Position numbers and translations under genes: made by a program
Shown: positions 14,539-64,000 of the stretch, one piece after another
How the letters are laid out: the number at the start of each line of letters is the position of its first letter
How positions within the stretch are numbered: the stretch's first letter is position 1
NCBI RefSeq assembly: GCF_964355755.1
Contig: NC_092677.1
Location: 20,358,101-20,422,100, forward strand
From: Antedon mediterranea
Taxonomy: Eukaryota; Animalia; Echinodermata
Reading direction: 5' to 3'
Length of the DNA: 64,000 nt
Notes under the pieces: model-generated
What the model was told of the DNA's origin: nothing
The model's database searches: none
The model's input: the letters and a program-made list of their open reading frames with translations, nothing else

Positions 14539-14607
14539 ATAAAACGATATATACTCTATATCATTTTACGTATACAGTATATTTCACCATAAAGTTAAAG
14601 AAAAATA

Positions 14608-15685: not shown

Positions 15686-15728
15686 ATTGCGTATACAGTA
15701 CTTTTCACCATAAAGTTTAAAAAAAAAA

Positions 15729-30833: not shown

Positions 30834-31333
30834 CACCCGATTCTGCTACTGTCCACAGGTGCTATCTGTAAAACTATAGCAAGTTATACACGTTGCTGTC
30901 TGCTATAAATGCTGTACTTTTAACACACGGTACACTGTCTGTAGCACAGTGTGTGTTGACAATTTACAATGATGTACAACCATAGGCAGGTTTTCGTACT
31001 GCCATGCAAGAATGGATAGGTGTTTTCCGCCGCTTTTAGGCCTTCTAGTCAATTATTGTTATTATTATACGAATTACGTAATTAGTCTAGTAGCTCATCT
31101 ACCTTTTTAGCAGGACATAATGAATATTGTAGCTAGGCTAGGCCTACTAGTCTAGCGGGAAATCAACCAATTATTTGGTTGGATACGAGTTTAGGGTAGG
31201 AAGTTAAGTACGAGTAAAATGGATGGTTATGTGAACTGTGTATCTTGCCATAGGGTAACATGACAAACTGCATGGTATTAGCTGATCTATAGCCAGTGAT
31301 TCTTATTAATTAGTTACTTTTGTAACATTTGCA

Positions 31334-36726: not shown

Positions 36727-37551
36727 AACAAGGCCAACAGCCATTAAGTCGCGTGCTACAATGCATAGTGATACCGGACCGACAGACAAACAGACCGACA
36801 GACAGACAGACCGACAGACCGACAGACCGACAGACAGACGGACCGACCGACATAGTGAACTATACTGACCGAAATTACTGAACATGTTTAAAAATGTTGA
36901 AATGTTTAAAAAAATTTATATTTTTTTAATTTACACGTGCGTAGCCTGTCACTTTTGACGTGCTCGTATAACGTAATTTCGAGTTGAAAAGTAAGTCAAG
37001 AAAACAGAAATCGGGCAAAAAGAGTGCGCAATAACATTTAACGCGCAGTGCGCGCGCAAAAATCTGCGCACTCATGGCAATTTTGTAAACGCTTAAAATT
37101 GCCAGAAACGTACTCTTATTTCATCGAAAATAAATTTTGAAAATTTTAGGCGCGCGTACGCATGCGTTACATGCGCTACGCACGTAATTGTATTGCCATA
37201 TGATGATTTATGCCCTGAAATTTATGAGTACCAAATTTTATTTAATTGTGATTCATGGTTGTTAAGATATGATTACAAACGTGATTTCGTTAAATCGTGC
37301 GTAGACCGCGTAATTTTTTATTGCGCACCGTGAAATCATAACCACATCGATTCCTGGCCATAAGGAATATTCTGTGAAAAATTGATTTAGCTAGATTAAA
37401 CTGATATCAAGATAAGGTCATAAAGCGATAAAACGCATAGTGATACCGGACCGACAGACAGACAGACCGACAGACAGACCGACAGACAGACAGACAGACA
37501 GACAGACCGACCGACCGACATAGTGAACTATAGAGTCGCTTCCACGCGACT
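36727..37551. mobile_element. 825-bp non-autonomous Helentron-type element (HINE/DINE-1-like) with (GACA/GACC)n microsatellites
   Basis: AACAAG plus hairpin GGC-CAACA-GCC; subterminal IR AGTCGCGTG / CACGCGACT; terminal hairpin AGTCGC-TTCCAC-GCGACT. Removing it restores GTATTT|AAAAACGTT with no TSD. Confidence 0.88.
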
Positions 37552-40500: not shown

Positions 40501-43500
40501 TCAAAGAGTAAAAAATAGCTTAATATCGTATTTAAAAACGTTTTAGACCATTTTGAGCATTTCGAAAAAACTTTTTCACACAAAACATCAAAGTCCACAA
40601 AATAGCTTAATATAGTATTTAAAAACGTTTTAGACCATTTTGTGCGTTTTGAAAAAACTTTTTCACACAAAACATCAAAGTTTACAAAATAGCTTCAAAT
40701 CGCATTTGGAGACGTTTTAGACCATTTTGTGATTTTCGAAAAAACTTGTTAACATAAAAACACCAAAGTGCTCAGAATACCTTCAAATCGCATTTTGAAA
40801 CGTTTTAGACCATTTTGTGATTTTCGAAAAAACTTGTTAACATAAAAACACCAAAGTGCTCAGAATACCTTCAAATCGTATTTTGAGACGTTTTAGACCA
40901 TTTTGTGATTTTCGAAAAAACTTGTTAACATAAAAACACCAAAGTGCTTAGAAAAGCTTCAAATCGCATTTGGAGACGTTTTAGACCATTTTGTTCATTT
41001 CGATGAAACTTGGTTACACAAAAACATCAAAGAGCACAAAAGATCTTAATATCGTATTTAAAAACGTTTTAGACCATTTTGAGCATTTCGAAAAAAACTT
41101 TTTCACACAAAACATCAAAGTGTACAAAATAGCTTCAAATCGCATTTGGAGACGTTTAGACAATTTTGTGATTTTCGAAAAAACTTGTTTACATAAAAAC
41201 ACCAAAGTGCTAAGAATAGCTTCCAATCGCATTTGGAGACGTTTTAGACCCTTTTGTGCATTTCGATGAAACTTGGTTACACAAAAACATCAAAGTGCTT
41301 AAAATCACATTAGAAACCATTTTAGACCATTTTGAGCATTTCGTTAAAATTTTTCACAGAAAAACATCAAAGAGCAAAAAATAGCTTAATATCGTATTTA
41401 AAAACGTTTTAGACCATTTTGAGCATTTCGACAAAACTTTTTCACACAAAACATCAAAGTGTACAGAATAGCTTCAAATCGCATTTGGAGACGTTTTAAA
41501 CCAGTTTGAGCATTTCGATAAAATTTTACACACAAAAACATCAAAGTGCACAAAATAGCTTAATATGGTATTTAAAAACGTTTTAGACCATTTTGAGCAT
41601 TTCGACAAAACTTTTTCTCACAAAACATCAAAGTGTACAGAATAGCTTCAAATCGCATTTGGAGACGTTTTAGACCATTTTGTGCATTTCGATGAAACTT
41701 GGTTACACAAAAACATCAAAGTGCTTAAAATCACATTTTGAGCATTTCGTTAAAACTTTTCACACAAAAACATCAAAGTCCACAAAATAGCTTAATATAG
41801 TATTTAAAAACGTTTTAGACCATTTTGAGCGTTTCGAAAAAACTTTTTCACACAAAACATCAAAGTTTACAAAATAGCTTCAAATCGCATTTGGAGACGT
41901 TTTAGACCATTTTGTGATTTTCGAAAAAACTTGTTAACATAAAAACACCAAAGTGCTCAGAATATCTTCAAATCGCATTTTGAGACGTTTTAGACCATTT
42001 TGTGATTTTCGAAAAAACTTGTTAACATAAAAACACCAAAGTGCTTAGAAAAGCTTCAAATCGCATTTGGAGACGTTTTAGACCATTTTGTTCATTTCGA
42101 TGAAACTTAGTTACACAAAAACATCAAAGAGCACAAAAGAGATATAATATCGTATTTAAAAACGTTTTAGACCATTTTGAGCATTTCGACAAAACTTTTT
42201 CACACAAAACATCAAAGTGTACAGAATAGCTTTAAATCGCATTTGGAGACGTTTTAGACCATTTTGTAGTTTTCGAAAAAACTTGTTAACATAAAAACAC
42301 AAAAGAGCTAAGAATAGCTTCAAATCGCATTTGGAGACGTTTTAGACCCTTTTGTGCATTTCGATGAAACTTGGTTACACAAAAACATCAAAGTGCTTAA
42401 AATCACATTAGAAACCGTTTTAGACCATTTTGAGCATTTCGTTAAAACTTTTCACACAAAAACATCAAAGTCCACAAAATAGCTTAATATCGTATTTAAA
42501 AACGTTTTAGACCATTTTGAGCATTTCGAAAAAACTTTTTCACACAAAACATCAAAGTTTACAAAATAGCTTCAAATCGCATTTGGAGACGTTTTAGACC
42601 ATTTTGTGATTTTCGAAAAAACTTGTTAACATAAAAACACCAAAGTGCTCAGAATACCTTCAAATCACATTTTGAGACGTTTTAGACCATTTTGTGATTT
42701 TCGAAAAAACTTGTTAACATAAAAACACCAAAGTGCTTAGAAAAGCTTCAAATCGCATTTGGAGACGTTTTAGACCATTTTGTGCATTTCGATGAAACTT
42801 GGTTACACAAAAACATCAAAGTGCTTAAAATCACATTTTGAGCATTTCGTTAAAACTTTTCACACAAAAACATCAAAGAGCAAAAAATAGCTTAATATCG
42901 TATTTAAAAACGTTTTAGACCATTTTGAGCATTTCGACAAAACTTTTTCACACAAAACATCAAAGTTTACAAAAAAGCTTCAAATCGCATTTGGAGACGT
43001 TTTAGACCATTTTGTGATTTTCGAAAAAACTTGTTAACATAAAAACACCAAAGTGCTTAGAAAGGCTTCAAATCGCATTTGGATACGTTTTAGACCATTT
43101 TGTTCATTTCGATGAAACTTGGTTACACAAAAACATCAAAGAGCACAAAAGTATTTAAAAACGTTTTACACCATTTTGAGCATTCCGACAAAACTTTTTC
43201 ACACAAAACATCAAAGTGTACAGAATAGCTTTAAATCGCATTTGGAGACGTTTTAGACCATTTTGTAGTTTTCGAAAAAACTTGTTAACATAAAAACACA
43301 AAAGAGCTTCAAATCGCATTTGGAGACGTTTTAGACCCTTTTGTGCATTTCGATGAAACTTGGTTACACAAAAACATCAAAGTGCTTAAAATCACATTAG
43401 AAACCGTTTTAGACCATTTTGAGCATTTCGTTAAAACTTTTCACACAAAAACATCAAAGTCCACAAAATAGCTTAATATCGTATTTAAAAACGTTTTAGA

Positions 43501-46500
43501 CCATTTTGAGCATTTCGAAAAAACTTTTTCACACAAAACATCAAAGTTTACAAAATAGCTTCAAATCGCATTTGGAGACGTTTTAGACCATTTTGTGATT
43601 TTCGAAAAAACTTGTTAACATAAAAACACCAAAGTGCTCAGAATACCTTCACATCGCATTTTGAGACGTTTTAGACCATTTTGTGATTTTCGAAAAAACT
43701 TGTTAACATAAAAACTCCAATGTGCTTAGAAAAGCTTCAAATTGCATTTGGAGACGTTTTAGACCATTTTGTGCATTTCGATGAAACTTAGTTACACAAA
43801 AACATCAAAAAGCACAAAAGAGCTTAATATCGTATTTAAAAACGTTTTAGACCATTTTGAGCATTTCGAAAAAACTTTTTCACACAAAACATCAAAGTTT
43901 ACAAAATAGCTTCAAATCGCATTTGGAGACGTTTTAGACCATTTTGTGATTTTCGAAAAAACTTGTTAACATAAAAACACCAAAGTGCTCAGAATACCTT
44001 CAAATCGTATTTTGAGACGTTTTAGACCATTTTGTGATTTTCGAAAAAACTTGTTAACATAAAAACACCAAAGTGCTTAGAAAAGCTTCAAATCGCATTT
44101 GGAGACGTTTTAGACAATTTTGTGCATTTCGATGAAACTTGGTTACACAAAAACATCAAAGAGCACAAAAGAGCTTAATATCGTATTTAAAAACGTTTTA
44201 GACCATTTTGAGCATTTCGACAAAACTTTTTCACACAAAACATCAAAGTCCACAAAATAGCTTAATATCGTATTTAAAAACGTTTTAGACCATTTTGAGC
44301 ATTTAGAAAAAACTTTTTCACACAAAACATTAAAGTTTACAAAATAGCTTCAAATCGCATTTGGAGACGTTTTAGACCATTTTGTGATTTTCGAAAAAAC
44401 TTGTTAACATAAAAACACCAAAGTGCTCAGAATACCTTCAAATCGCATTTTGAGACGTTTTAGACCATTTTGTGATTTTCGAAAAAACTTGTTAACATAA
44501 AAACACCAAAGTGCTTAGAAAAGCTTCAAATCGCATTTGGAGACGTTTTAGACCATTTTGAGCATTTCGATAAAATTTTACACACAAAAACATCAAAGAT
44601 TTCGATGAAACTTGGTTACACAAAAACATCAAAGAGCACAAAAGAGCTTAATATCGTATTTAAAAACGTTTGAGACCATTTTGAGCATTTCGACAAAACT
44701 TTTTCACACAAAACATCAAAGTGTACAGAATAGCTTTAAATCGCATTTGGAGACGTTTTAGACCATTTTGTAGTTTTCGAAAAAACTTGTTAACATAAAA
44801 ACACAAAAGAGCTAAGAATAGCTTCAAATCGCATTTTTAGACGTTTTAGACCCTTTTGTGCATTTCGATGAAACTTGGTCACACAAAAACATCAAAGTGC
44901 TTAAAATCACATTAGAAACCGTTTTAGACCATTTTGAGCATTTCGAAAAAACTTTTTCACACAAAACATCAAAGTTTACAAAATAGCTTCAAATCACATT
45001 TGGAGACGTTCTAGACCATTTTGTGATTTTCAAAAAAACTTGTTAACATAAAAACACCAAAGTGCTCAGAATACCTTCAAATCACATTTGGAGACGTTTT
45101 AGACCCTTTTGTGCATTTCGATTAAACTTGGTTACACAAAAACATCAAAGTGCTTAAAATCACATTAGAAACCGTTTTAGACCATTTTGAGCATTTCGTT
45201 AAAACTTTTCACACAAAAACATCAAAGTCCACAAAATAGCTTAATATCGTATTTAAAAACGTTTTAGACCATTTTGAGCATTTCGAAAAAACTTTTTCAC
45301 ACAAAACATCAAAGTGTACAGAAAAGCTTCAAATAGCATTTGGAGACGTTTTAGACCATTTTGTTCATTTCGATGAAACTTGGTTACACAAAAACATCAA
45401 AGAGCACAAAAGAGCTTAATATCGTATTTAAAAACGTTTTAGACCATTTTGAACGTTTCGAGAAAACTTTTTCACACAAAACTTCAAAGTGTACAGAATA
45501 GCTTCAAATCGCATTAGAAACCGTTTTAGACCATTTTGAGCATTTCGAAAAAACTTTTTCACACAAAACATGACATCAAAGTTTACAAAATAGCTTCAAA
45601 TCGCATTTGGAGACGTTTTAGACCATTTAGTGATTTTCGAAAAAACTTGTTAACATAAAAACACCAAAGTGCTCAGAATACCTTCAAATCGTATTTTGAG
45701 ACGTTTTAGACCATTTTGTGATTTTCGAAAAAACTTGTTGACATAAAAACACCAAAGTGCTCAGAATACCTTCAAATCGTGTTTTGAGACGTTTTAGACC
45801 ATTTTGTGATTTTCGAAAAAACTTGTTAACATAAAAACACCAAAGTGCTTAGAAAAGCTTCAAATCGCATTTGGAGACGTTTTAGACCATTTTGTTCATT
45901 TCGATGAAACTTGGTTACACAAAAACATCAAAGAGCACAAAAGATCTTAATATCGTATTTAAAAACGTTTTAGACCATTTTGAGCATTTCGAAAAAACTT
46001 TTTCACACAAAACATCAAAGTGTACAAAATAGCTTCAAATCGCATTTGGAGACGTTTTAGACAATTTTGTGATTTTCGAAAAAACTTGTTTACATAAAAA
46101 CACCAAAGTGCTTAGAAAAGCTTCAAATCGCATTTGGAGACGTTTTAAACCATTTTGTTCATTTCGATGAAACTTGGTTACACAAAAACATCAAAGAGCA
46201 CAAAAGTATTTAAAAACGTTTTAGACCATTTTGAGCATTCCGACAAAACTTTTTCACACAAAACATCAAAGTGTACAGAATAGCTTTAAATCGCATTTGG
46301 AGACGTTTTAGACCATTTTGTATTTTTCGAAAAAACTTGTTAACATAAAAACACAAAAGAACTTCAAATCGCATTTGGAGACGTTTTAGACCCTTTTGTG
46401 CATTTCGATGAAACTTGGTTACACAAAAACATCAAAGTGCTTAAAATCACATTAGAAACCGTTTTAGACCATTTTGAGCATTTCGTTAAAACTTTACACA

Positions 46501-49500
46501 CAAAAACATCAAAGTCCACAAAATAGCTTAATATCGTATTTAAAAACGTTTTAGACCATTTTGAGCATTTCGAAAAAACTTTTTCACACAAAACATCAAA
46601 GTTTATAAAATAGCTTCAAATCGCATTTGGAGACGTTTTAGACCATTTTGTGATTTTCGAAAAAACTTGTTAACATAAAAACACCAAAGTGCTCAGAATA
46701 CCTTCAAATCGCATTTTGAGACGTTTTAGACCATTTTGTGATTTTCGAAAAAACTTAACATAAAAACACCAAAGTGCTCAGAATACCTTCAAATCGCATT
46801 TGGAGACGTTTTAGACCATTTTGTGATTTTCGAAAAAACTTGTTAACATAAAAACACCAAAGTGCTCAGAATACCTTCAAATCGTATTTTGAGACGTTTT
46901 AGACAATTTTGTGATTTTCGAAAAAAACTTGTTAACATAAAAACACCAAAGTGCTTAGAAAAGCTTCAAATCGCATTTGGAGACGTTTTAGACCATTTTG
47001 TGCATTTCGATGAAACTTGGTTACACAAAAACATCAAAGTGTACAGAATAGCTTCAAATCGCATTAGAAACCGTTTTAGACCATTTTGAGCATTTCGAAA
47101 AAACTTTTTCACACAAAACATCAAAGTGTACAAAATAGCTTCAAATCGCATTTGGAGACGTTTTAGACAATTTTGTGATTTTCGAAAAAACTTGTTTACA
47201 TAAAAACACCAAAGTGCTAAGAATAGCTTCCAATCGCATTTGGAGACGTTTTAGACCCTTTTGTGCATTTCGATGAAACTTGGTTACACAAAAACATCAA
47301 AGTGCTTAAAATCACATTAGAAACCGTTTTAGACCATTTTGAGCATTTCGTTGAAATTTTTCACAGAAAAACATCAAAGAGCAAAAAATAGCTTAATATC
47401 GTATTTAAAAACGTTTTAGACCATTTTGAGCATTTCGACAAAATTTTTTCACACAAAACATCAAAGTGTACAGAATAGCTTCAAATCGCATTTGGAGACG
47501 TTTTAAACCATTTTGAGCATTTCGATAAAATTTTACACACAAAAACATCAAAGTGCACAAAATAGCTTAATATGGTATTTAAAAACGTTTTAGACCATTT
47601 TGAGCATTTCAACAAAACTTTTTCTCACAAAACATCAAAGTGTACAGAATAGCTTCAAATCGCATTTGGAGACGTTTTAGACCATTTTGTGCATTTCGAT
47701 GAAACTTGGTTACACAAAAACATCAAAGTGCTTAAAATCACATTTTGAGCATTTCGTTAAAACTTTTCACACAAAAACATCAAAGTCCACAAAATAGCTT
47801 AATATCGTATTTAAAAACGTTTTAGACCATTTTGAGCATTTCGAAAAAACTTTTTCACACAAAACATCAAAGTTTACAAAATAGCTTCAAATCGCATTTG
47901 GAGACGTTTTAGACCATTTTGTGATTTTCGAAAAAACTTGTTAACATAAAAACACCAAAGTGCTCAGAATACCTTCAAATCGCATTTGGAGACGTTTTAG
48001 ACCATTTTGTGATTTTCGAAAAAACTTGTTAACATAAAAACACCAAAGTGCTTAGAAAAGCTTCAAATCGCATTTGGAGACGTTTTAGACCATTTTGTGC
48101 ATTTCGATGAAACTTGGTTACACAAAAACATCAAAGTGCTTAAAATCACATTTTGAGCATTTCGTTAAAACTTTTCACACAAAAACATCAAAGAGCAAAA
48201 AATAGCTTAATATCGTATTTAAAAACGTTTTAGACCATTTTGAGCATTTCGACAAAACTTTTTCACACAAAACATCAAAGTTTACAAAATAGCTTCAAAT
48301 CGCATTTGGAGACGTTTTAGACCATTTTTTGATTTTCGAAAAAACTTGTTAACATAAAAACACCAAAGTGCTTAGAAAAGCTTCAAATCGCATTTGGAGA
48401 CGTTTTAGACCATTTTGTTCATTTCGATGAAACTTGGTTACACAAAAACATCAAAGAGCACAAAAGATCTTAATATCGTATTTAAAAACGTTTTAGACCA
48501 TTTTGAGCATTTCGAAAAAACTTTTTCACACAAAACATCAAAGTGTACAAAATAGCTTCAAATCGCATTTGGAGACGTTTTAGACAATTTTGTGATTTTC
48601 GAAAAAACTTGTTTACATAAAAACACCAAAGTGCTCAGAATACCTTCAAATCGCATTTGGAGACGTTTTAGACCATTTTGTGATTTTCGAAAAAACTTGT
48701 TAACATAAAAACACCAAAGTGCTTAGAAAAGCTTCAAATCGCATTTGGAGACGTTTTAGACCATTTTGTGCATTTCGATGAAACTTGGTTACACAAAAAC
48801 ATCAAAGTGCTTAAAATCACATTTTGAGCATTTCGTTAAAACTTTTCACACAAAAACATCAAAGAGCAAAAAATAGCTTAATATCGTATTTAAAAACGTT
48901 TTAGACCATTTTGAGCATTTCGACAAAACTTTTTCACACAAAACATCAAAGTTTACAAAATAGCTTCAAATCGCATTTGGAGACGTTTTAGACCATTTTT
49001 TGATTTTCGAAAAAACTTGTTTACATAAAAACACCAAAGTGCTTAGAAAAGCTTCAAATCGCATTTGGAGACGTTTTAGACCATTTTGTTCATTTCGATG
49101 AAACTTGGTTACACAAAAACATCAAAGAGCACAAAAGAGCTTAATATCGTATTTAAAAACGTTTTAGACCATTTTGAGCATTTCGACAAAACTTTTTCAC
49201 ACAAAACATCAAAGTGTACAGAATAGCTTTAAATCGCATTTTGAGACGTTTTAGACCATTTTGGGATTTTCGAAAAAACTTGTTAACATAAAAACACCAA
49301 AGTGCTCAGAATACCTTCAAATCGCATTTGGAGACGTTTTAGACCCTTTTGTGCATTTCGATGAAACTTGGTTACACAAAAACATCAAAGTGCTTAAAAT
49401 CACATTAGAAACCGTTTTAGACCATTTTGCGCATTTCGTTAAAACTTTTCACACAAAAACATCAAAGTCCACAAAATAGCTTAATATCGTATTTAAAAAC

Positions 49501-50250
49501 GTTTTAGACCATTTTGAGCATTTCGAAAAAACTTTTTCACACAAAACATCAAAGTTTACAAAATAGCTTCAAATCGCATTTGGAGACGTTTTAGACCATT
49601 TTGTGATTTTCGAAAAAACTTGTTAACATAAAAACACCAAAGTGCTCAGAATACCTTCAAATCGCATTTGGAGACGTTTTAGACCATTTTGTGATTTTTG
49701 AAAAAACTTGTTAACATAACACAGCTGTTCCAGAAATATGAATTAAGTGTAGCGCCCCCAACGTTTCATAGCGTTTTATGGAGTAGCGATTCCGAAAACA
49801 TATTGTATACGAACCCCATGAGGAATCCGGAAGCAATCAAGCATAAAACGACTGTTTTTTAATAGCCAATAAAAACAAATAAAGACCGCGAAAGTCAGAA
49901 AAATAATGAATATTCATTAGAACAACCCTGGATGAAGGTGAAAAACATGTTGTCGTCGTTTTATCACGTGGATTTTAAGAGGTAATGTAATTGAAAATTG
50001 TACACCCAACGCCAGTTTTTTTCTCAAGCGATACATTTAAAAAGTAGGTATAAATGTTGTTTTCCATATCAGTTTAAAAATAATTTTTTCTGTTGAATTC
50101 TTTGATTTAGTTGGATACTTTAGTTATCCTTGAATGTTTTAACAAGGATCGTATTCATATTGCCTGGCTGGATTTTTTCCTATGCTAGCTTATAATAGGC
50201 TATGCCCAGGCCCCATTGCGTGGTTAAAACCAGCTGTGTAAGACTAATGG

Positions 50251-51182
50251 CTGTTTATTTTTAACACGTAAACATGTATATTCGGAGGGCCTGAGTGACA
50301 GTTGACCTGTTATAAAGCTGATTAATTACTTGTTCCTGGTCCTAATTAAAAATTAGGCCTAGTCTAGCCCCAAGCTTTTTTAATAATCATTCATATTGGG
50401 AGAGGAGTACAGAGTAGGCCAGGCTACAGGCCTAGCCTAGTAGCCTAGCTAGGCCTATATAATAGGCTAGGCTACATCATCAGCAGGTTAAAGGCTAGCA
50501 GCCTACCTAGCATGTCTTAGTCAAAGATCTGTAATATATTAATAGAAAGAAGATATAGAGTACTGTGACATTAGATATTTAATCATAAATGCATATTTCT
50601 TTCATATTTGTATTGACTATTGTATATTTATTATTTTGATATGCAATCACAATCTAAATCAGTAAATAACATCAATTTCCGTTATCAATCAATAATTATT
50701 AATATATAAACCAAATTAAAATAAAATAACTGTTTATTTTTAACACGTCAACATGTCTATTCGGGGGCCTGAGTGACAGTTGACCTGTTATAAAGCTGAT
50801 TAATTACTTGTTCCTGGTCCTAATTAAAAATTAGGCCTAGCCTAGGCCTAAGCTTTTTTAATAATCATTCATATTGGGAGAGAGGAGTACAGAGTAGGCC
50901 AGGTTACAGGCCTAGCCTAGCTAGGCCTATACTATATATATGCTAGGCTACATCATCAGCAGGTTAAAGACTAGCAGCCTACCTAGCATGTCTTAGTCAA
51001 AGATCTGTAATATATTAATAGAAAGAAGCTATAGAGTACTGTGACATTAGATATTTAATTATAAATGCATATTTCTTTCATATTTGTATTGTATTATATA
51101 TGCAATCACAATCTAAATCACTAAATAACATCAATTTCCGTTATCAATCAATAATATATATAAACCAAATTAAAATAAAATA
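50251..51182. repeat. Internal tandem duplication (~479-bp period) in the transposon
   Basis: CTGTTTATTTTTAACACGT at 50251 and 50730; both copies end CCAAATTAAAATAAAATA. Confidence 0.92.
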
Positions 51183-51389
51183 GCTTCCAAAAAATTAAAT
51201 TCATTTACAATTCATATACCATTTGTTAAATATTTACAAAATCATTGTTCTAGCAATAACACAAAAAAATACTACCATTCATACAGTATACTGTACATAA
51301 TAATATGCAATACTGTAACAATTAACTGAGAAATAGCAAACTATTCCTCAACTTTTCTCCACTTAGTTACTTCATGCTGGATCTCAGGT

Positions 51390-52546
51390 GAAATAAACGT
51401 CAGATGTGACTTCATGATTTCCCACAAAACTTTTTCCATGGTACTGCTGTCGAGGAATTAATTTTTTCTAAATACCTCGTCCATTTTTGTACATAGAGGT
51501 CCAGTTTCAAATCTCTTGGTTCATAGTAGTTCACTATATAAAATATATAAAAGAAATATGGCATTAATTTTTATAGTATTTGCATGTTTTAGACAAAATT
51601 TTAAAGGTGTATAATGTAGGACTGACCAAGTCTTTGACCTCTTGTTCTTTTAGATTTAGTCTGTGGCCAGTCTCTGCAATCTTACTATGCTGTTTTGTCA
51701 CAAGTGACACTGAGAGTTCATTTCTTAAATGCTCAAGATTCTCTTCTAAAGACTGGATTTTAATCATTGTACTTTGTAGCATGTCGATGTGCTGCAGCTT
51801 CTGATTTTCTCTTTCTGCTAGATGATCACCTGAGATTAAACAATATTGGTCAACCAAATAAACGTCAATCTGCATAAAAAATGAGCATCAAAATTATTAT
51901 ATTTAAAAAATGTTAACAACTATTTCTTGTAGCAGATAATGATATGGATAATTCATAGGAAAATAAGTTCCAGCCAAAGGTTTGCTTTATTATGCATAAA
52001 AACAGGATAAACAATTTTGAAATTCTATGCTCAAAGGGACAATGTATATTTAAAGAGCAACTTGACCAATTGAGTTATTATGTAATGTCAATGTAAAGTT
52101 GAAACAACATTTGAATTTACCAGTCAAGATGTCAGCATCCTGTCGCATGTTGAATATTATAACATATTGACACCTGGAAAAATAGTTGATTGAGGAAATA
52201 TTTAATAAAGAAAAGAGGTATATTTATAAATTACTGTAACAATTGTTTGTTTCGACAGTTATTTTATACTAACATTGTTCTTTAATATGAAGTACAAACA
52301 CACATTTCATTGTTTGGAGTGTGTATTAAACTTTTTAAAGAGGTGGTTATGATTATTTACCTATCCTGTTTAATTCAATGTCTACCAGGTATGGCCTAAC
52401 AACGCTGTGCGATATTGTTTTGCTTCTTTTTTTCACTGCCATGGTCTACAAAAGACTTGTAGGCCTTGATATATCTACAGGCTTGAGGAACATTGTTGGT
52501 TCTGATGTCATCTTGATTACAAAAACAATAGATGCAACTGTACTTT
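51390..52546 (-). pseudogene. Intron-split, frameshifted transposase fragments
   Basis: Putative exons: ~52546-52361 KYSCIYCFCNQDDI...FVDHGSEKK/AKQY/SVVRPYLVDIELNR; a short piece ~52173-52121; ~51869-51626 coiled coil IDVYLVDQ...KEQEVKDL; ~51533-51390 GPLCTKMDEV/IPRQQYHGKSFVGNH. AG/GT boundaries are visible. Confidence 0.7.
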
Positions 52547-53471
52547 CTTTTAAAAATAAATCAATTTTTAAATCTACAGTACTTCAAATTTTGTGTCCAA
52601 ACAAATCCAAACAAGAGAGCTAATAGCCAAAATATTAAACCATTATTATGCTGTAAAAATGTATTAATATTATTAAGGCCTAGCCTAGGCTGTGACTGTC
52701 ACTTCAGTCACACCAGCTAGCCTAAAAATGCACCAGGAAAGCAATAATTATTATTATAAACACATGCCATTAATTATTTGGTAACAGTTATAATGATTAC
52801 ATTTAGGATTAAGGTAATTAAAGGTTTAACTATTACGAATTTTCTATGTTTCGGCCTAGCTTCATTCTAGGCCCACATTACTGTCACGGTCATCGCGGGC
52901 GTCAACGCACTTTCTAAGCCTATCGCCAAACCGTTAATAATAATAATGCATAAAAGAGTTGCAAAATATGCGAGTTTTACTAAAAACTGAACCAGGCTAT
53001 ATTAACAAAACTAGTATTATTTTGTTTATATAATAATGATGGACTATATTCTAGTTCGTTCTTTTTCTAAAAAAATGAATTATATCCAAAAATAAAGTAA
53101 AGAATACAATGATATTTTCTACTTACGATTGTTTACTATTTCATTACACAGTTTATCTCAACTTCCTGGTTTATGTGCGGGAGAGTATTTCAGTAAAATG
53201 GACAATATCCTCGTTTATTTATTAATTTATAGTAAAGAAACAATAAAATATTTATTTTTTAATTGAACATACACTTTTTTTAATCGTTTAGTTTTGTATA
53301 AAATGTTTTTACTACATAAAAACTGACGATAGCGAAATTTAATTTGGCGTTCGCGAAATAATGGTTTGTAAACAAAAATTATATGTCCGCGCGACTCGGG
53401 GGAGCCTCGTCTGCTAACACTGAGGGCGCTTGACTTTTTCTGATACCTTAACACTAGTTGAAACAGCTGTG

Positions 53472-56400
53472 ATAAAAACACCAAAGTGCTTAGAAAATCT
53501 TCAAATCGCATTTGGAGACGTTTTAGACCATTTTGTGCATTTCGATGAAACTTGGTTACACAAAAACATCAAAGTGCTTAAAATCACATTTTGAGCATTT
53601 CGTTAAAACTTTTCACACAAAAACATCAAAGTCCACAAAATAGCTTAATATCGTATTTAAAAACGTTTTAGACCATTTTGAGCATTTCGAAAAAACTTTT
53701 CCACACAAAACATCAAAGTTTACAAAATAGCTTCAAATCGCATTTGGAGACGTTTTAGACCATTTTGTGATTTTCGAAAAAACTTGTTAACATAAAAACA
53801 CCAAAGTGCTCAGAATACCTTCAAATCGTGTTTTGAGACGTTTTAGACAATTTTGTAATTTTCGAAAAAACTTGTTAACATAAAAACACCAAAGTGCTCA
53901 GAATACCTTCACATCGCATTTTGAGACGTTTTAGACCATTTTGTGATTTTCGAAAAAACTTGTTAACATAAAAACACCAAAGTGCTTAGAAAAGCTTGAA
54001 ATCGCATTTGGAGACGTTTTAGACCATTTTGTGCATTTCGATGAAACTTGGTTACACAAAAACATCAAAGTGCTTAAAATCACATTTTGAGCATTTCGTT
54101 AAAACTTTTCACACAAAAACATCAAAGAGTAATAAATAGCTTAATATGGTATTTAAAAACGTTTTAGACCATTTTGAGCATTTCAACAAAACTTTTTCTC
54201 ACAAAACATCAAAGTGTACAGAATAGCTTCAAATCGCATTTGGAGACGTTTTAGACCATTTTGTGCATTTCGATGAAACTTGGTTACACAAAAACATCAA
54301 AGTGCTTAAAATCACATTTTGAGCATTTCGTTAAAACTTTTCACACAAAAACATCAAAGTCCACAAAATAGCTTAATATCGTATTTAAAAACGTTTTAGA
54401 CCATTTTGAGCATTTCGAAAAAACTTTTCCACACAAAACATCAAAGTTTACAAAATAGCTTCAAATCGCATTTGGAAACGTTTTAGACCATTTTGTGATT
54501 TTCGAAAAAACTTGTTAACATAAAAACACCAAAGTGCTCAGAATACCTTCAAATCGTGTTTTGAGACGTTTTAGACCATTTTGTAATTTTCGAAAAAACT
54601 TGTTAACATAAAAACACCAAAGTGCTCAGAATACCTTCACATCGCATTTTGAGACGTTTTAGACCATTTTGTGATTTTCGAAAAAACTTGTTAACATAAA
54701 AACACCAAAGTGCTTAGAAAAGCTTGAAATCGCATTTGGAGACGTTTTAGACCATTTTGTGCATTTCGATGAAACTTGGTTACACAAAAACATCAAAGTG
54801 CTTAAAATCACATTTTGAGCATTTCGTTAAAACTTTTCACACAAAAACATCAAAGAGTAATAAATAGCTTAATATGGTATTTAAAAACGTTTTAGACCAT
54901 TTTGAGCATTTCAACAAAACTTTTTCTCACAAAACATCAAAGTGTACAGAATAGCTTCAAATCGCATTTGGAGACGTTTTAGACCATTTTGTGCATTTCG
55001 ATGAAACTTGGTTACACAAAAACATCAAAGTGCTTAAAATCACATTTTGAGCATTTCGTTAAAACTTTTCACACAAAAACATCAAAGTCCACAAAATAGC
55101 TTAATATCGTATTTAAAAACGTTTTAGACCATTTTGAGCATTTCGAAAAAACTTTTTCACACAAAACATCAAAGTTTACAAAATAGCTTCAAATCGCATT
55201 TGGAAACGTTTTAGACCATTTTGTGATTTTCGAAAAAACTTGTTAACATAAAAACACCAAAGTGCTCAGAATACCTTCAAATCGTGTTTTGAGACGTTTT
55301 AGACCATTTTGTAATTTTCGAAAAAACTTGTTAACATAAAAACACCAAAGTGCTCAGAATACCTTCACATCGCATTTTGAGACGTTTTAGACCATTTTGT
55401 GATTTTCGAAAAAACTTCTTAACATAAAAACACCAAAGTGCTTAGAAAAGCTTGAAATCGCATTTGGAGACGTTTTAGACCATTTTGTGCATTTCGATGA
55501 AACTTGGTTACACAAAAACATCAAAGTGCTTAAAATCACATTTTGAGCATTTCGTTAAAACTTTTCACACAAAAACATCAAAGAGTAATAAATAGCTTAA
55601 TATCGTATTTAAAAACGTTTTAGACCATTTTGAGCATTTCAACAAAACTTTTTCTCACAAAACATCAATGTGTACAGAATAGCTTCAAATCGCATTTGGA
55701 GACGTTTTAGACCATTTTGTGCATTTCGATGAAACTTGGTTACACAAAAACATCAAAGTGCTTAAAATCACATTTTGAGCATTTCGTTAAAACTTTTCAC
55801 ACAAAAACATCAAAGTCCACAAAATAGCTTAATATCGTATTTAAAAACGTTTTAGACCATTTTGAGCATTTCGAAAAAACTTTTCCACACAAAACATCAA
55901 AGTTTACAAAATAGCTTCAAATCGCATTTGGAGACGTATTAGACCATTTTGTGATTTTCGAAAAAACTTGTTAACATAAAAACACCAAAGTGCTCAGAAT
56001 ACCTTCAAATCGCATTTGGAGACGTTTTAGACCCTTTTGTGCATTTCGATGAAACTTGGTTACACAAAAACATCAAAGTGCTTAAAATCACATTAGAAAC
56101 CGTTTTAGACCATTTTGAGCATTTCGTTAAAATTTTTCATAGAAAAACATCAAAGAGCAAAAAATAGCTTAATATCGTATTTAAAAACGTTTTAGACCAT
56201 TTTGAGCATTTCGACAAAACTTTTTCACACAAAACATCAAAGTGTACAGAATAGCTTCAAATCGCATTTGGAGACGTTTTAACCCATTTTGAGCATTTCG
56301 GTAAAATTTTACACACAAAAACATCAAAGTGCACAAAATAGCTTAATATGGTATTTAAAAACGTTTTAGACCATTTTGAGCATTTCAACAAAACTTTTTC

Positions 56401-59250
56401 TCACAAAACATCAAAGTGTACAGAATAGCTTCAAATCGCATTTGGAGACGTTTTAGACCATTTTGTGCATTTCGATGAAACTTGGTTACACAAAAACATC
56501 AAAGTGCTTAAAATCACATTTTGAGCATTTCGTTAAAACTTTACACACAAAAACATCAAAGTCCACAAAATAGCTTAATATCGTATTTAAAAACGTTTTA
56601 GACCATTTTGAGCATTTCGAAAAAACTTTTCCACACAAAACATCAAAGTTTACAAAATAGCTTCAAATCGCATTTGGAAACGTTTTAGACCATTTTGTGA
56701 TTTTCGAAAAAACTTGTTAACATAAAAACACCAAAGTGCTCAGAATACCTTCAAATCTCATTTGGAGACGTTTTAGACCCTTTTGTGCATTTCGATGAAA
56801 CTTGGTTACACAAAAACATCAAAGTGCTTAAAATCACATTAGAAACCGTTTTAGACCATTTTGAGCATTTCGTTAAAATTTTTCACAGAAAAACATCAAA
56901 GAGCAAAAAATAGCTTAATATCGTATTTAAAAACGTTTTAGACCATTTTGAGCTTTTCGACAAAACTTTTTCACACAAAACATCAAAGTGTACAGAATAG
57001 CTTCAAATCGCATTTGGAGACGTTTTAACCCATTTTGAGCATTTCGATAAAATTTTACACACAAAAACATCAAAGTGCACAAAATAGCTTAATATGGTAT
57101 TTAAAAACGTTTTAGACCATTTTGAGCATTTCAACAAAACTTTTTCTCACAAAACATCAAAGTGTACAGAATAGCTTCAAATCGCATTTGGAGACGTTTT
57201 AGACCATTTTGTGCATTTCGATGAAACTTGGTTACACAAAAACATCAAAGTGCTTAAAATCACATTTTGAGCATTTCGTTAAAACTTTTCACACAAAAAC
57301 ATCAAAGTCCACAAAATAGCTTAATATCGTATTTAAAAACGTTTTAGACCATTTTGAGCATTTCGAAAAAACTTTTCCACACAAAACATCAAAGTTTACA
57401 AAATAGCTTCAAATCGCATTTGGAGACGTTTTAGACCATTTTGTGATTTTCGAAAAAACTTGTTAACATAAATACACCAAAGTGCTCAGAATACCTTCAA
57501 ATCGTGTTTTGAGACGTTTTAGACAATTTTGTAATTTTCGAAAAAACTTGTTAACATAAAAACACCAAAGTGCTCAGAATACCTTCACATCGCATTTTGA
57601 GACGTTTTAGACCATTTTGTGATTTTCGAAAAAACTTGTTAACATAAAAACACCAAAGTGCTTAGAAAAGCTTGAAATCGCATTTGGAGACGTTTTAGAC
57701 CATTTTGTGCATTTCGATGAAACTTGGTTACACAAAAACATCAAAGTGCTTAAAATCACATTTTGAGCATTTCGTTAAAACTTTTCACACAAAAACATCA
57801 AAGAGTAATAAATAGCTTAATATGGTATTTAAAAACGTTTTAGACCATTTTGAGCATTTCAACAAAACTTTTTCTCACAAAACATCAAAGTGTACAGAAT
57901 AGCTTCAAATCGCATTTGGAGACGTTTTAGACCATTTTGTGCATTTCGATGAAACTTGGTTACACAAAAACATCAAAGTGCTTAAAATCACATTTTGAGC
58001 ATTTCGTTAAAACTTTTCACACAAAAACATCAAAGTCCACAAAATAGCTTAATATCGTATTTAAAAACGTTTTAGACCATTTTGAGCATTTCGAAAAAAC
58101 TTTTCCACACAAAACATCAAAGTTTACAAAATAGCTTCAAATCGCATTTGGAAACGTTTTAGACCATTTTGTGATTTTCGAAAAAACTTGTTAACATAAA
58201 AACACCAAAGTGCTCAGAATACCTTCAAATCGTGTTTTGAGACGTTTTAGACCATTTTGTAATTTTCGAAAAAACTTGTTAACATAAAAACACCAAAGTG
58301 CTCAGAATACCTTCACATCGCATTTTGAGACGTTTTAGACCATTTTGTGATTTTCGAAAAAACTTCTTAACATAAAAACACCAAAGTGCTTAGAAAAGCT
58401 TGAAATCGCATTTGGAGACGTTTTAGACCATTTTGTGCATTTCGATGAAACTTGGTTACACAAAAACATCAAAGTGCTTAAAATCACATTTTGAGCATTT
58501 CGTTAAAACTTTTCACACAAAAACATCAAAGAGTAATAAATAGCTTAATATCGTATTTAAAAACGTTTTAGACCATTTTGAGCATTTCAACAAAACTTTT
58601 TCTCACAAAACATCAAAGTGTACAGAATAGCTTCAAATCGCATTTGGAGACGTTTTAGACCATTTTGTGCATTTCGATGAAACTTGGTTACACAAAAACA
58701 TCAAAGTGCTTAAAATCACATTTTGAGCATTTCGTTAAAACTTTTCACACAAAAACATCAAAGTCCTCAAAATAGCTTAATATCGTATTTAAAAACGTTT
58801 TAGACCATTTTGAGCATTTCGAAAAAACTTTTCCACACAAAACATCAAAGTTTACAAAATAGCTTCAAATCGCATTTGGAGACGTTTTAGACCATTTTGT
58901 GATTTTCGAAAAAACTTGTTAACATAAAAACACCAAAGTGCTCAGAATACCTTCAAATCGCATTTGGAGACGTTTTAGACCCTTTTGTGCATTTCGATGA
59001 AACTTGGTTACACAAAAACATCAAAGTGCTTAAAATCACATTAGAAACCGTTTTAGACCATTTTGAGCATTTCGTTAAAATTTTTCACAGAAAAACATCA
59101 AAGAGCAAAAAATAGCTTAATATCGTATTTAAAAACGTTTTAGACCATTTTGAGCATTTCGACAAAACTTTTTCACACAAAACATCAAAGTGTACAGAAT
59201 AGCTTCAAATCGCATTTGGAGACGTTTTAACCCATTTTGAGCATTTCGAT
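53472..59250. repeat. 728-bp higher-order repeat (9 monomers) inside a larger ~2.9-3.7-kb duplication
   Basis: Diagnostic GAGTAATAAATAGC at 54127, 54855, 55583, 57803 and 58531 (steps of 728 within each cluster). Variant ACTTCTTAAC at ~55413 and ~58362. Confidence 0.88.
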
Positions 59251-62200
59251 AAAAATTTTCCACACAAAACATCAAAGTTTACAAAATAGCTTCAAATCGC
59301 ATTTGGAGACGTTTTAGACCATTTTGTTCATTTCGATGAAACAAAAACACAAAAACATCAAATTGCACAAAATGGCTTAATATGATATGGGAAAACGTTT
59401 TAGACCATTTTGAACATTTCGTTAAAAGTTTTCACACAAAAACATCAAAGTCCACAAAATAGCTTAATATCGTATTTAAAAACGTTTTAGACCATTTTGA
59501 GCATTTCGAAAAAACTTTTTCACACAAAACATCAAAGTTTACAAAATAGCTTCAAATCGCATTTGGAGACGTTTTAGACCATTTTGTGATTTTCGAAAAA
59601 ACTTGTTAACATAAAAACACCAAAGTGCTCAGAATACCTTCAAATCGCATTTTGAGACGTTTTAGACCATTTTGTGATTTTCGAAAAAACTTGTTAACAT
59701 AAAAACACCAAAGTGCTCAGAATACCTTCAAATCGTGTTTTGAGACGTTTTAGACCATTTTGTGATTTTGGAAAAACTTGTTAACATAAAAACACCAAAG
59801 TGCTCAGAATACCTTCAAATCGCATTTGGAGACGTTTTAGACCATTTTGTGATTTTCGAAAAAACTTGTTAACATAAAAACACCAAAGTGCTCAGAATAC
59901 CTTCAAATCGTGTTTTGAGACGTTTTAGACCATTTTGTGATTTTGGAAAAACTTGTTAACATAAAAACACCAAAGTGCTCAGAATACCTTGAAATCGCAT
60001 TTGGAGACGTTTTAGACCATTTTGTGATTTTCGAAAAAACTTGTTAACATAAAAACACCAAAGTGCTCAGAAAAGCTTTAAATCGCAATTGGAGACGTTT
60101 TAAACCATTTTGTTCATTTCGATGAAACTTGGTTACACAAAAACATCAAATTGCACAAAATGGCTTAATATGGTATGGGAAAACGTTTTAGACCATTTTG
60201 AACATTTCGAGAAAACTTTTTCACACAAAACTTCAAAGTGTACAGAATAGCTTCAAATCGCATTAGAAACCGTTTTAGACCATTTTGAGAATTTCGAAAA
60301 AACTTTTTCACACAAAACATCAAAGTTTACAAAATAGCTTCAAATCACATTTGGAGACATTTTAGACCATTTTGTGATTTTCAAAAAAACTTGTTAACAT
60401 AAAAACACCAAAGTGCTCAGAATACCTTCAAATCGCATTTTGAGACGTTTTAGACTATTTTGTGATTTTCGGAAAAACTTGTTAACATAAAAACACCAAA
60501 GTGCTTAGAAAAGCTTCAAATCGCATTTGGAGACGTTTTAGACCATTTTGTAATTTTCGAAAAAACTTGTTAACATAAAAACACCAAAGTGCTCAGAATA
60601 CCTTCACATCGCATTTTGAGACGTTTTAGACCATTTTGTGATTTTCGAAAAAACTTGTTAACATAAAAACACCAAAGTGCTTAGAAAAGCTTGAAATCGC
60701 ATTTGGAGACGTTTTAGACCATTTTGTGCATTTCGACAAAATTTTTTCACACAAAACATCAAAGTGTACAGAATAGCTTTAAATCGCATTTGGAGACGTT
60801 TTAGACCATTTTGTTCATTTCGATGAAACAAAAACACAAAAACATCAAATTGCACAAAATGGCTTAATATGATATGGGAAAACGTTTTAGACCATTTTGA
60901 ACATTTCGTTAAAAGTTTTCACACAAAAACATCAAAGTCCACAAAATAGCTTAATATCGTATTTAAAAACGTTTTAGACCATTTTGAGCATTTCGAAAAA
61001 ACTTTTTCACACAAAACATCAAAGTTTACAAAATAGCTTCAAATCGCATTTGGAGACGTTTTAGACCATTTTGTGATTTTCGAAAAAACTTGTAAACATA
61101 AAAACACCAAAGTGCTCAGAATACCTTCAAATCGCATTTTGAGACGTTTTAGACCATTTTGTGATTTTCGAAAAAACTTGTTAACATAAAAACACCAAAG
61201 TGCTCAGAATACCTTCAAATCGTGTTTTGAGACGTTCTAGACCATTTTGTGATTTTCGAAAAAACTTGTTAACATAAAAACACCAAAGTGCTTAGAAAAG
61301 CTTGAAATCGCATTTGGAGACGTTTTAGACCATTTTGTGCATTTCGATGAAACTTGGTTACACAAAAACATCAAAGTGCTTAAAATCACATTTTGAGCAT
61401 TTCGTTAAAACTTTTCACACAAAAAAAAATTGAGTAAAAAATAGCTTAATATCGTATTTAAAAACGTTTTAGACCATTTTGAGCATTTCGACAAAATTTT
61501 TTCACACAAAACATCAAATTGTACAGAATAGCTTTAAATCGCATTTGGAGACGTTTTAGACCATTTTGTTCATTTCGATGAAACAAAAACACAAAAACAT
61601 CAAATTGCACAAAATGGCTTAATATGATATGGGAAAACGTTTTAGACCATTTTGAACATTTCGTTAAAAGTTTTCCCACAAAAACATCAAATTCCACAAA
61701 ATAGCTTAATATCGTATTTAAAAACGTTTTAGACCATTTTGAGCATTTCGAAAAAACTTTTTCACACAAAACATCAAAGTTTACAAAATAGCTTCAAATC
61801 GCATTTGGAGACGTTTTAGACCATTTTGTGATTTTCGAAAAAACTTGTTAACATAAAAACACCAAAGTGCTCAGAATACCTTGAAATCGCATTTGGAGAC
61901 GTTTTAGACCATTTTGTGATTTTCGAAAAAACAACATAAAAACACCAAAGTGCTCAGAATACCTTCAAATCGCATTTGGAGACGTTTTAGACCATTTTGT
62001 GATTTTCGAAAAAACTTGTTAACATAAAAACACCAAAGTGCTCAGAATAACTTCAAATCGTATTTTGAGACGTTTTAGACAATTTTGTGATTTTCGAAAA
62101 AACTTGTTAACATAAAAACACCAAAGTGCTTAGAAAAGCTTCAAATCGCATTTGGAGACGTTTTAGACCATTTTGTGCATTTCGATGAAACTTGGTTACA

Positions 62201-64000
62201 CAAAAACATCAAAGTGTACAGAATAGCTTCAAATCCCATTAGAAACCGTTTTAGACCATTTTGAGCATTTCGAAAAAACTTTTTCACACAAAACATCAAA
62301 GTGTACAGAATAGCTTCAAATCGCATTTGGAGACGTTTTAACCCATTTTGACAATTTCGATAAAATTTTACACACAAAAACATCAAAGTGCACAAAATAG
62401 CTTAATATGGTATTTAAAAACGTTTTAGACCATTTTGAGCATTTCAACAAAACTTTTTCTCACAAAACATCAAAGTGTACAGAATAGCTTCAAATCGCAT
62501 TTGGAGACGTTTTAGACCATTTTGTGCATTTCGATGAAACTTGGTTACACAAAAACATCAAAGTGCTTAAAATCACATTTTGAGCATTTCGTTAAAACTT
62601 TTCACACAAAAACATCAAAGTCCACAAAATAGCTTAATATCGTATTTAAAAACGTTTTAGACCATTTTGAGCATTTCGAAAAAACTTTTCCACACAAAAC
62701 ATCAAAGTTTACAAAATAGCTTCAAATCGCATTTGGAGACGTTTTAGACCATTTTGTGATTTTCGAAAAAACTTGTTAACATAAAAACACCAAAGTGCTC
62801 AGAATACCTTCAAATCGCATTTGGAGACGTTTTAGACCATTTTGTGATTTTCGAAAAAACTTGTTAACATAAAAACACCAAAGTGCTCAGAATACCTTCA
62901 AATCGTGTTTTGAGACGTTTTAGACCATTTTGTGATTTTCGAAAAAACTTGTTAACATAAAAACACCAAAGTGCTTAGAAAAGCTTCAAATCGCATTTGG
63001 AGACGTTTTAGACCATTTAGTTCATTTCGATGAAACTTGGTTACACAAAAACATCAAAGAGCACAAAAGATCTTAATATCGTATTTAAAAACGTTTTAGA
63101 CCATTTTGAGCATTTCGAAAAAACTTTTTCACACAAAACATCAAAGTGTACAAAATAGCTTCAAATCGCATTTGGAGACGTCTTAGACAATTTTGTGATT
63201 TTCGAAAAAACTTGTTTACATAAAAACACCAAAGTGCTTAGAAAAGCTTCAAATCGCATTTGGAGACGTTTTAAACCATTTTGTTCATTTCGATGAAACT
63301 TGGTTACACAAAAACATCAAAGAGCACAAAAGTATTTAAAAACGTTTTAGACCATTTTGAGCATTCCGACAAAACTTTTTCACACAAAACATCAAAGTGT
63401 ACAGAATAGCTTTAAATCGCATTTGGAGACGTTTTAGACCATTTTTTTAGTTTTCGAAAAACTTGTTAACATAAAAACACAAAAGAGCTTCAAATCGCAT
63501 TTGGAGACGTTTTAGACCCTTTTGTGCATTTCGATGAAACTTGGTTACACAAAAACATCAAAGTGCTTAAAATCACATTAGAAACCGTTTTAGACTTTTT
63601 TGAGCATTTCGTTAAAACTTTTCACACAAAAACATCAAAGTCCACAAAATAGCTTAATATCGTATTTAAAAACGTTTTAGACCATTTTGTGATTTTCGAA
63701 AAAACTTGTTAACATAAAAACACCAAAGTGCTCAGAATACCTTCAAATCGCATTTTGAGACGTTTTAGACCATTTTGTGATTTTCGAAAAAACTTGTTAA
63801 CATAAAAACACCAAAGTGCTCAGAATACCTTCAAATCGTGTTTTGAGACGTTTTAGACCATTTTGTGATTTTGGAAAAACTTGTTAACATAAAAACACCA
63901 AAGTGCTCAGAATACCTTGAAATCGCATTTGGAGACGTTTTAGACCATTTTGTGCATTTCGATGAAACTTGGTTACACAAAAACATCAAAGTGCTTAAAA

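What the first reader, a model, noticed from the sequence alone, without database searches (positions are those of the whole stretch)
49720..53471. Transposon with RSS-like asymmetric bipartite ends differing by one helical turn
Seen: both ends start CACAGCTGTTYCA (the RSS heptamer is CACAGTG), diverge, then share the decamer AGCGCCCYCA at position 32 on the left (49751) and position 42 on the right (53430-53421). Spacers after the heptamer are therefore 24 and 34 bp. Known: V(D)J RSSs use 12/23 spacers, and RAG-like transposons have bipartite asymmetric TIRs with 5-bp TSDs, whereas Chapaev elements have CAC termini and 4-bp TSDs. Inference: a 4-bp-TSD lineage with a 12/23-like end-pairing geometry, relevant to the origin of RAG recognition rules.
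Basis: partly seen in the sequence, partly recalled or inferred. Interest (0 to 1): 0.85.

Follow-up and report, generated by a model that had tools for sequence, protein, structure and literature searches.

The report
Jumping gene with long/short ends
This is a real jumping-DNA element with no transposase gene, sitting in satellite DNA of what is likely an animal genome; its two ends carry the same internal signal 10 bases (one DNA turn) apart, likely a docking site for the unseen enzyme that moves it, a layout already known in relatives of the antibody-gene recombinase but not found described for this likely Chapaev-type group in the papers searched.

Summary
49720-53471 is a 3,752-bp insertion in an 88-bp satellite, with CAC..GTG ends, a 13-bp terminal repeat (12/13) and a 4-bp ATAA duplication shown by an empty site. 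The decamer alone is weak (191 of 3,000 shuffles). It lies in a 21-bp block shared by both ends (16/21; 2 of 3,000) at positions 26 and 36. In public contigs of three coded organisms the right-end block is kept by elements with four other internal sequences. One of these has a largely replaced spacer of nearly the same length. The left end, and so the offset itself, was not tested in relatives. No transposase was found, so Chapaev membership rests on the ends alone. The element carries a broken, spliced, unassigned minus-strand gene. The ends are not RSSs: heptamer 5/7, GC-rich distal block, 4-bp duplication. Similar long/short ends are published for Transib, AanRAGL, PflRAGL-A and P elements. 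Verdict: a likely Chapaev-type non-autonomous element with bipartite, one-turn-offset ends; a 12/23-like pairing rule is plausible but untested. Moderate interest.

The parts
49720..53471 (.). Non-autonomous DNA transposon, 3,752 bp, CAC..GTG termini
   Evidence: pieces along its whole length found in public contigs of coded organisms A and B, 26 of 30 bins in C
49716..49719 (+). Left copy of the 4-bp target-site duplication ATAA
   Evidence: empty site
53472..53475 (+). Right copy of the 4-bp target-site duplication ATAA
49720..49732 (+). Left 13-bp terminal inverted repeat
53459..53471 (-). Right 13-bp terminal inverted repeat (12/13 identical to the left)
   Evidence: other flanks begin right after 53471 in 2 contigs of X2 and 3 of X8
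49733..49744 (+). Short spacer, 12 bp
53437..53458 (-). Long spacer, 22 bp; sequence largely replaced in a related family
49745..49765 (+). Left distal block (positions 26-46), holding the decamer at 49751-49760
53416..53436 (-). Right distal block (positions 36-56), holding the decamer at 53430-53421
53409..53438 (-). Right-end conserved island of about 30-37 bp, shared with elements that have other internal sequences
   Evidence: records 4, 5, 17 and loose ends before 53402, 53407, 53408, 53409
51341..52510 (-). Broken spliced gene of unknown family read from the right end: exons about 52510(start uncertain)-52365, 52173-52121, 51829-51627 (coiled-coil-like), 51533-51341 (three predicted helices, low confidence)
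   Evidence: splice signals; joint 52173/52365 and the exon-4 loose end at 51627 listed only for run X3, whose RNA label is a guess; no family or homologue; model pLDDT 57
50043..51654 (+). GT..AG joint (1,610 nt skipped) of a likely plus-strand RNA from the left part of the element
   Evidence: 3 contigs in X3, none in X2, X6, X9; splice signals
50251..51182 (.). Internal tandem duplication of about 480 bp, 91% identical
36091..64000 (.). 88-bp satellite array that holds the insertion

Best explanation
It is a transposase-less cut-and-paste DNA transposon, likely of the Chapaev type, whose ends each carry a 13-bp terminal repeat, a spacer (12 bp left, 22 bp right) and a shared 21-bp block that is likely a second docking site for a transposase supplied from elsewhere in the genome. 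Shown: the insertion, the 4-bp duplication, the repeat, the block, the 10-bp offset, and conservation of the right-end block across families. Inferred: a DDE transposase of the CACTA-Mirage-Chapaev-Transib group cuts at the CAC ends while a flexibly linked domain holds the distal block; one helical turn keeps that block on the same face of the DNA at both ends; strand transfer with a 4-nt stagger into AT-rich DNA gives the duplication. A preference for pairing one short with one long end, as in the 12/23 rule, is the likely reason for the offset if it is functional, but is untested (about even odds within this explanation). The spliced minus-strand gene is likely a retained accessory or captured gene facing a deleted transposase gene.
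For: Ends, duplication and empty site. Block 16/21 in 2 of 3,000 shuffles; MAFFT also puts a 10-column gap between the ends. (17 of 23 laid records listed): four other internal sequences join the right-end block, three seen in both X2 and X8 and one in X9. Of 10 listed records running from the block to the terminus, 9 have no net length change (1 to 12 substitutions) and 1 is 3 nt shorter. One further family (record 4, loose end behind 53438 in X2 and X8) matches the block at 34 of 37, the terminal repeat at 10 of 11 shown letters, and the spacer at only 8 of 19 without gaps (counted by eye), with a spacer 1 nt shorter (last two letters inferred from a 32-letter loose end). CAC..GTG with a 3-4-bp duplication is the stated Chapaev hallmark (PMC4079192); Transib and RAGL give 5 bp. 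In the Chapaev3 ends printed in PMC4079192 Fig. S6, a shared 7-mer is offset by 9 and 10 bp in 2 of 4 Merrow families (by eye).
Against: No transposase or remnant: no Pfam hit above cut-off in stop-free stretches or in nine read-through frames, and the one HMMER search with the left-end frame gave 2 unrelated repeat proteins. Left ends of relatives were not examined, so conservation of the offset itself is untested. One search finds only sequences at 80% or more, favours gap-free matches and does not print where most substitutions lie. A 9-11 offset arises in 10% of shuffles. The AGCGCCCY core occurs 3 times in 13.7 kb of other non-satellite DNA of this window (0.14 expected; 0 of 300 shuffles), once as a perfect copy of the right decamer far from any CAC end, so it is not specific to these ends. 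The other 2 of 4 Merrow families show offsets of 0 and 1. Duplication length is labile within Transib.
Confidence: 0.5

Rival explanations
1. The shared block is a host transcription-factor or promoter motif that drives the inward-reading transcripts from each end. The transposase needs only the 13-bp repeat and the 10-bp offset is incidental.
For: The core motif is enriched in unrelated repeats of the window. Joints consistent with spliced RNA from both strands are listed for run X3 only. The right-end island is 30-37 bp, longer than the part shared with the left end. The offset has a 10% chance rate.
Against: The other occurrences share only the 8-10-bp core, not the 21-bp block; one of the three resembles a LINE/SINE tail motif (recalled, not tested). 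The island keeps its distance from the terminus within 0 to 3 nt in 11 of 11 cases seen, and is kept by families with unrelated interiors. X3's RNA label is a guess.
Confidence: 0.22
2. Both ends descend from one longer imperfect inverted repeat of about 50 bp; a single 10-bp insertion or deletion arose once and was tolerated. The block may be bound, but there is no phasing or pairing rule.
For: A single gap aligns the ends. Related families share ancestry, so similar spacer lengths need no selection. One right-end record is 3 nt shorter (record 8). Merrow families vary between offset and near-symmetric ends.
Against: The spacer has diverged to 8 of 19 in one family while its length changed by 1 nt, and records with 11-12 substitutions in 64-66 nt have no gaps. 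The short record is of low depth and may be a decayed copy.
Confidence: 0.15
3. It is a non-autonomous Transib or RAG-like element with an atypical 4-bp duplication rather than a Chapaev.
For: 13-bp CAC repeats and convergent genes are RAGL features. AanRAGL has a 13-bp plus 10-bp layout with 4/13-bp spacers. RAG makes some 4-bp duplications and some Transibs depart from 5 bp.
Against: The target is AT-rich and 4 bp, against GC-rich 5 bp. There is no A-rich stretch at positions 8-10 and no A-rich nonamer. The minus-strand gene gave no kelch or PHD match.
Confidence: 0.12

Closest known systems
Chapaev transposons (CMC/CMCT group; PMC4079192, PMC4411706, passages and supplements read; the defining Repbase Reports were not read)
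   Same: CAC..GTG termini, short terminal repeat, 4-bp duplication within the stated 3-4 bp.
   Different: No transposase or Chapa domain found here. Bipartite ends with a one-turn offset and a convergent second gene were not found described for Chapaev in searches.
AanRAGL of Aureococcus (PMC9435367, passages)
   Same: 13-bp terminal element plus a distal block that is not A-rich; spacers differ by about one turn (4/13 bp).
   Different: 5-bp duplication, RAG1L and RAG2L genes, much shorter spacers, different sequences.
PflRAGL-A (10.1101/2023.08.20.553239, passages) and 12/23-like Transib families Transib5, Transib2_AG, TransibN1-N3_AG (PMC1131882, passages)
   Same: CAC ends with a distal motif and a length asymmetry of about 10-11 bp; non-autonomous members exist.
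   Different: AT-rich nonamer-like motif and 5-bp duplications; here the block is GC-rich and the duplication 4 bp.
V(D)J recombination signals (12/23 RSS)
   Same: CACAG start; a difference of about one helical turn.
   Different: Heptamer 5 of 7; no A-rich nonamer; block starts at 26/36 against nonamer at 20/31; no recombinase shown.
ProtoRAG (PMC8289069, passages)
   Same: Bipartite asymmetric ends with a tested moderate preference for unlike pairs.
   Different: 27/31-bp spacers (4-bp difference), RAG1L/RAG2L genes.
Drosophila P element (PMC7776569, passages)
   Same: Terminal repeat plus an internal 10-bp transposase site spaced differently at the two ends (9 and 21 bp), already likened to 12/23.
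   Different: Separate superfamily (recalled), 31-bp repeats, 8-bp duplication; shows that the geometry need not mean RAG ancestry.

Membership tests
Chapaev | [quoted passage not shown] | tested here: met
   feature
Chapaev | 3- to 4-bp target-site duplication | tested here: met
   4-bp ATAA with empty site, one insertion only
Chapaev | DDE transposase with C(2)C and H(3-4)H motifs | tested here: inconclusive
   none in this copy; expected for a non-autonomous element; no genome held to seek the partner
Chapaev | N-terminal Chapa zinc-finger domain | tested here: inconclusive
   two short peptides near 49960-50015 resemble the alignment by eye but lie in different frames and wrong spacing; no support
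Chapaev | Transposase phylogeny | not testable with these tools
   no transposase sequence obtained
Transib / RAG-like (RAGL) | 5-bp, usually GC-rich duplication | tested here: not met
   4-bp ATAA; feature; exceptions
Transib / RAG-like (RAGL) | RAG1L and kelch/PHD RAG2L genes, or a Transib transposase | tested here: not met
   no such match; the minus-strand gene is coiled-coil-like and unassigned
Transib / RAG-like (RAGL) | Bipartite asymmetric CAC ends | tested here: met
12/23 RSS | CACAGTG heptamer | tested here: not met
   5 of 7 in register; the first three letters are kept
12/23 RSS | A-rich nonamer after 12 or 23 bp | tested here: not met
   distal block is GC-rich and starts at 26/36
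12/23 RSS | Cleavage needs one short and one long end | not testable with these tools
   needs the enzyme and an assay
EnSpm/CACTA, Mirage | CAC ends with 2-3-bp duplication (3 bp for EnSpm; Mirage value recalled) | tested here: not met
   4 bp if the ends are CAC..GTG

The most novel reading that the evidence does not exclude
Chapaev-type transposons obey a 12/23-like rule: the transposase pairs one short with one long end, one helical turn apart. The rule would then predate the split of Chapaev from Transib and RAG, and the convergent spliced second gene would be an unrecognised, non-kelch partner subunit placed where RAG2 sits in RAG transposons.
Probability: 0.2. Interest if true: 0.75.

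Novelty: new variant of a known kind. Interest (0 to 1): 0.42.

Why it matters
Where the 12/23 rule came from is debated in terms of Transib and RAG-like ends. Chapaev transposases share RAG1's N-terminal zinc finger, but their ends were not found analysed in the papers searched. If long/short ends are general and functional in Chapaev, end asymmetry is older than RAG2 capture and is a shared design of the wider group; this family's many related ends give a ready test set. If the block is a promoter motif or the offset is incidental, this is an ordinary non-autonomous transposon.

Tried and rejected
No whole genome is held, so copies and the autonomous partner could not be retrieved. Pattern scans for related ends: 35 loci and 1 locus in viral contigs, 61 in metagenome contigs, 1 in prokaryote genomes. 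The 61 showed motif positions scattered from 19 to 49, mostly GC-rich; none of the 98 loci had a blastn match to the element at E 0.001; all treated as chance. Protein searches: Pfam on 14 stretches and on 10 read-through proteins, nothing above cut-off; three word-index searches, no hit at E 0.01 (weak for short queries); HMMER on 1.84 billion representatives with the 56-residue left-end frame, 2 unrelated repeat proteins; PDB by sequence, only GCN4 coiled-coil constructs at E 0.02 or weaker. The exon-4 model had pLDDT 57 and no fold match. The protein atlas gave no result. Rfam: 1 hit at E 0.069, far below its cut-off. A Chapa-domain remnant at the left end was considered and left unsupported: it needs at least two indels, and a diverged contig in X9 keeps the DNA hexamer but has a stop after it in that frame (by eye). 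A 2-, 3- or 5-bp duplication was rejected because each needs unequal or mismatched termini. Run X14 laid 0 contigs on the right end (no proof of absence). No holder is on record as RNA. The N-RAG-TP paper was not held under the identifier tried. Summed contig depth was not used as a copy number.

Full report
1. What is in the sequence. The window is mostly two satellite arrays with insertions, about 31% GC. Spliceosomal introns and a LINE-like insert point to an animal (inference). No whole genome is held. Positions 49720-53471 interrupt the 88-bp satellite. Both ends start CACAGCTGTTYCA (12 of 13) and ATAA flanks both sides. The flanks joined with one ATAA match an uninterrupted satellite stretch at 99.3% over 300 nt without gaps. 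The insertion and its 4-bp duplication are therefore shown, for this one copy.

2. The bipartite ends. The decamer is at 32 and 42 as reported, but a 9/10 match at some offset arises in 107 of 2,000 and 191 of 3,000 shuffles. It lies within a 21-bp block, left 26-46 and right 36-56, 16 of 21 identical, reached in 2 of 3,000 shuffles (length chosen after looking). Offset 10 is the only offset besides 0 with a long run of high-identity windows, with weaker ones at 13 and 18, and MAFFT inserts a 10-column gap. The spacers between repeat and block are 12 and 22 bp. An offset of 9-11 comes by chance in 10% of shuffles. In register the end matches the RSS heptamer at 5 of 7, and the block is GC-rich, unlike a nonamer.

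3. Relatives. Fifteen runs of 6 studies and four coded organisms hold part of the element, 5 of them half or more of its words; the best holders may be the window's own sample. Laid on the whole element, runs X3 and X2 (organism A) and X6 (B) cover 30 of 30 bins and X9 (C) 26 of 30. Laid on the right end (23 records laid, 17 listed, X14 none), four other internal sequences join the end at 53402, 53407, 53408 and 53409. Three local matches cover little more than 53409-53438, which marks a conserved island of 30-37 bp. Of 10 listed records running from the block to the terminus, 9 have no net length change (1 to 12 substitutions) and 1 is 3 nt shorter. One more family, seen in X2 and X8, matches the island at 34 of 37, the terminal repeat at 10 of 11 shown letters and the spacer at 8 of 19 without gaps (by eye), with a spacer 1 nt shorter. 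Other flanks start right after 53471 in 2 and 3 contigs. This is the pattern expected of a bipartite site. Pattern scans of viral, metagenome and prokaryote contigs gave 98 loci, none matching the element.

4. Coding content. There is no open frame over 113 codons in or overlapping the element and no transposase match. A minus-strand gene has four likely exons with standard splice signals, except the intron-1 donor, which the window copy has lost and all four runs retain. Run X3, whose RNA label is a guess, alone lists the intron-1 joint and a loose end at the intron-3 boundary equal to exon 4 at 17 of 18 letters, and also a plus-strand GT..AG joint from 50043 to 51654. These suggest RNA read inward from both ends. 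The product is a coiled-coil-like stretch plus three predicted helices (pLDDT 57), with no homologue or fold match. A Chapa-like remnant near the left end was seen by eye against the alignment but found no support.

5. Mechanism. Most likely (0.5) a transposase supplied in trans cuts at the CAC ends and holds the distal block with a flexibly linked domain, the one-turn offset keeping it on the same face of the helix; a 4-nt staggered joining gives the duplication. Binding, enzyme identity and any short-with-long pairing rule are inferred. The main rival (0.22) is a host or promoter motif: the core occurs 3 times in 13,687 other non-satellite bases of the window against 0.14 expected (0 of 300 shuffles; one duplicated insert was counted once). 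Other rivals are a tolerated 10-bp indel in a once longer repeat (0.15) and an atypical Transib or RAG-like element (0.12).

6. Comparison with known systems. CAC..GTG ends with 3-4-bp duplications are the Chapaev hallmark (PMC4079192, passages and supplement parts 1-2 of 3), so Chapaev is the best fit, on the ends alone. It fails the Transib/RAGL tests of a 5-bp duplication and RAG genes (PMC7204232 and PMC1131882, passages), though duplication length varies within Transib (10.64898/2026.08.26.747230, passages). Long/short ends are published for five Transib families, AanRAGL with 4/13-bp spacers (PMC9435367, passages), PflRAGL-A with a 10-bp asymmetry (10.1101/2023.08.20.553239, passages), ProtoRAG with 27/31 (PMC8289069, passages) and P elements with 9/21 (PMC7776569, passages). 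PMC8355894, PMC3014272, PMC12730594, PMC4411706 and 10.64898/2026.01.24.700457 were read as passages, with part 1 of 2 of one supplement. Printed Chapaev3 Merrow ends show offsets of 9 and 10 in two families and 0 and 1 in two (by eye), which cuts both ways. An earlier unchecked note of this scan (e1-8149024) reports long/short ends in a Chapaev element with a transposase from another genome; it agrees but was not tested here and is not counted as support. Look-ups returned nothing.

7. Verdict. Observation confirmed; interpretation partly supported. A real non-autonomous element, likely Chapaev-type, with a statistically solid and, at the right end, conserved bipartite structure. The geometry is a known kind seen in a group where it was not found described; the link to RAG rules is unproven. 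Novelty: new variant of a known kind. Interest 0.42; the boldest reading has probability 0.2 and would merit 0.75.

Noticed in passing
window 51341-52510 (-): Spliced gene inside the element. The window copy differs from all four runs laid at the intron-1 donor (52364) and at an exon-4 stop (51460), so other copies may hold a more intact frame. No homologue found.
   Followed up: partly
window 50043/51654 (+): GT..AG joint listed only for run X3: a likely plus-strand RNA that would be antisense to exon 3 of the minus-strand gene.
   Followed up: partly
runs X2, X6, X9 laid on window 49720-53471: Three coded organisms hold close copies (for example 782 letters with 15 substitutions in X6, 496 with 15 in X9): close kin or horizontal transfer, not resolved.
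   Followed up: no
records 7 and 12 (window 53408-53471): A deep-coverage family matches the right end with 11-12 substitutions and runs on about 50-60 letters past the terminus in one contig, as if the end were embedded in a larger repeat.
   Followed up: no
window 1-29588 and 36091-64000: Two satellite arrays, 261-bp and 88-bp units (the latter with higher-order repeats), meet through a 6.5-kb insertion.
   Followed up: no
window 20931-22284 and 29589-30833: Two copies (94-95%) of one insert at the same position of the 261-bp satellite; each holds a perfect copy of the right-end decamer about 350 bp inside.
   Followed up: partly
window 31310-34307 (+): Two overlapping long frames that look like the endonuclease and reverse transcriptase of a LINE (family recalled, not searched).
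   Followed up: no
window 25216-26167: 952-bp insert with inverted ends and an apparent 3-bp AAA duplication, Harbinger-like by recall.
   Followed up: no
window 36729-37550: 822-bp insert with GACA microsatellites near both ends, Helitron2/DINE-like by recall.
   Followed up: no
window 14198-15987: 1.8-kb insert with internal repeats and a LINE/SINE-tail-like motif near 15641 (label recalled).
   Followed up: no
PMC4079192 supplement, Fig. S6: Chapaev3 Merrow ends: a shared T-rich 7-mer is offset by 9 and 10 bp in two families and by 0 and 1 bp in the two lamprey families; counted by eye from PDF text, not remarked on in the passages read.
   Followed up: partly
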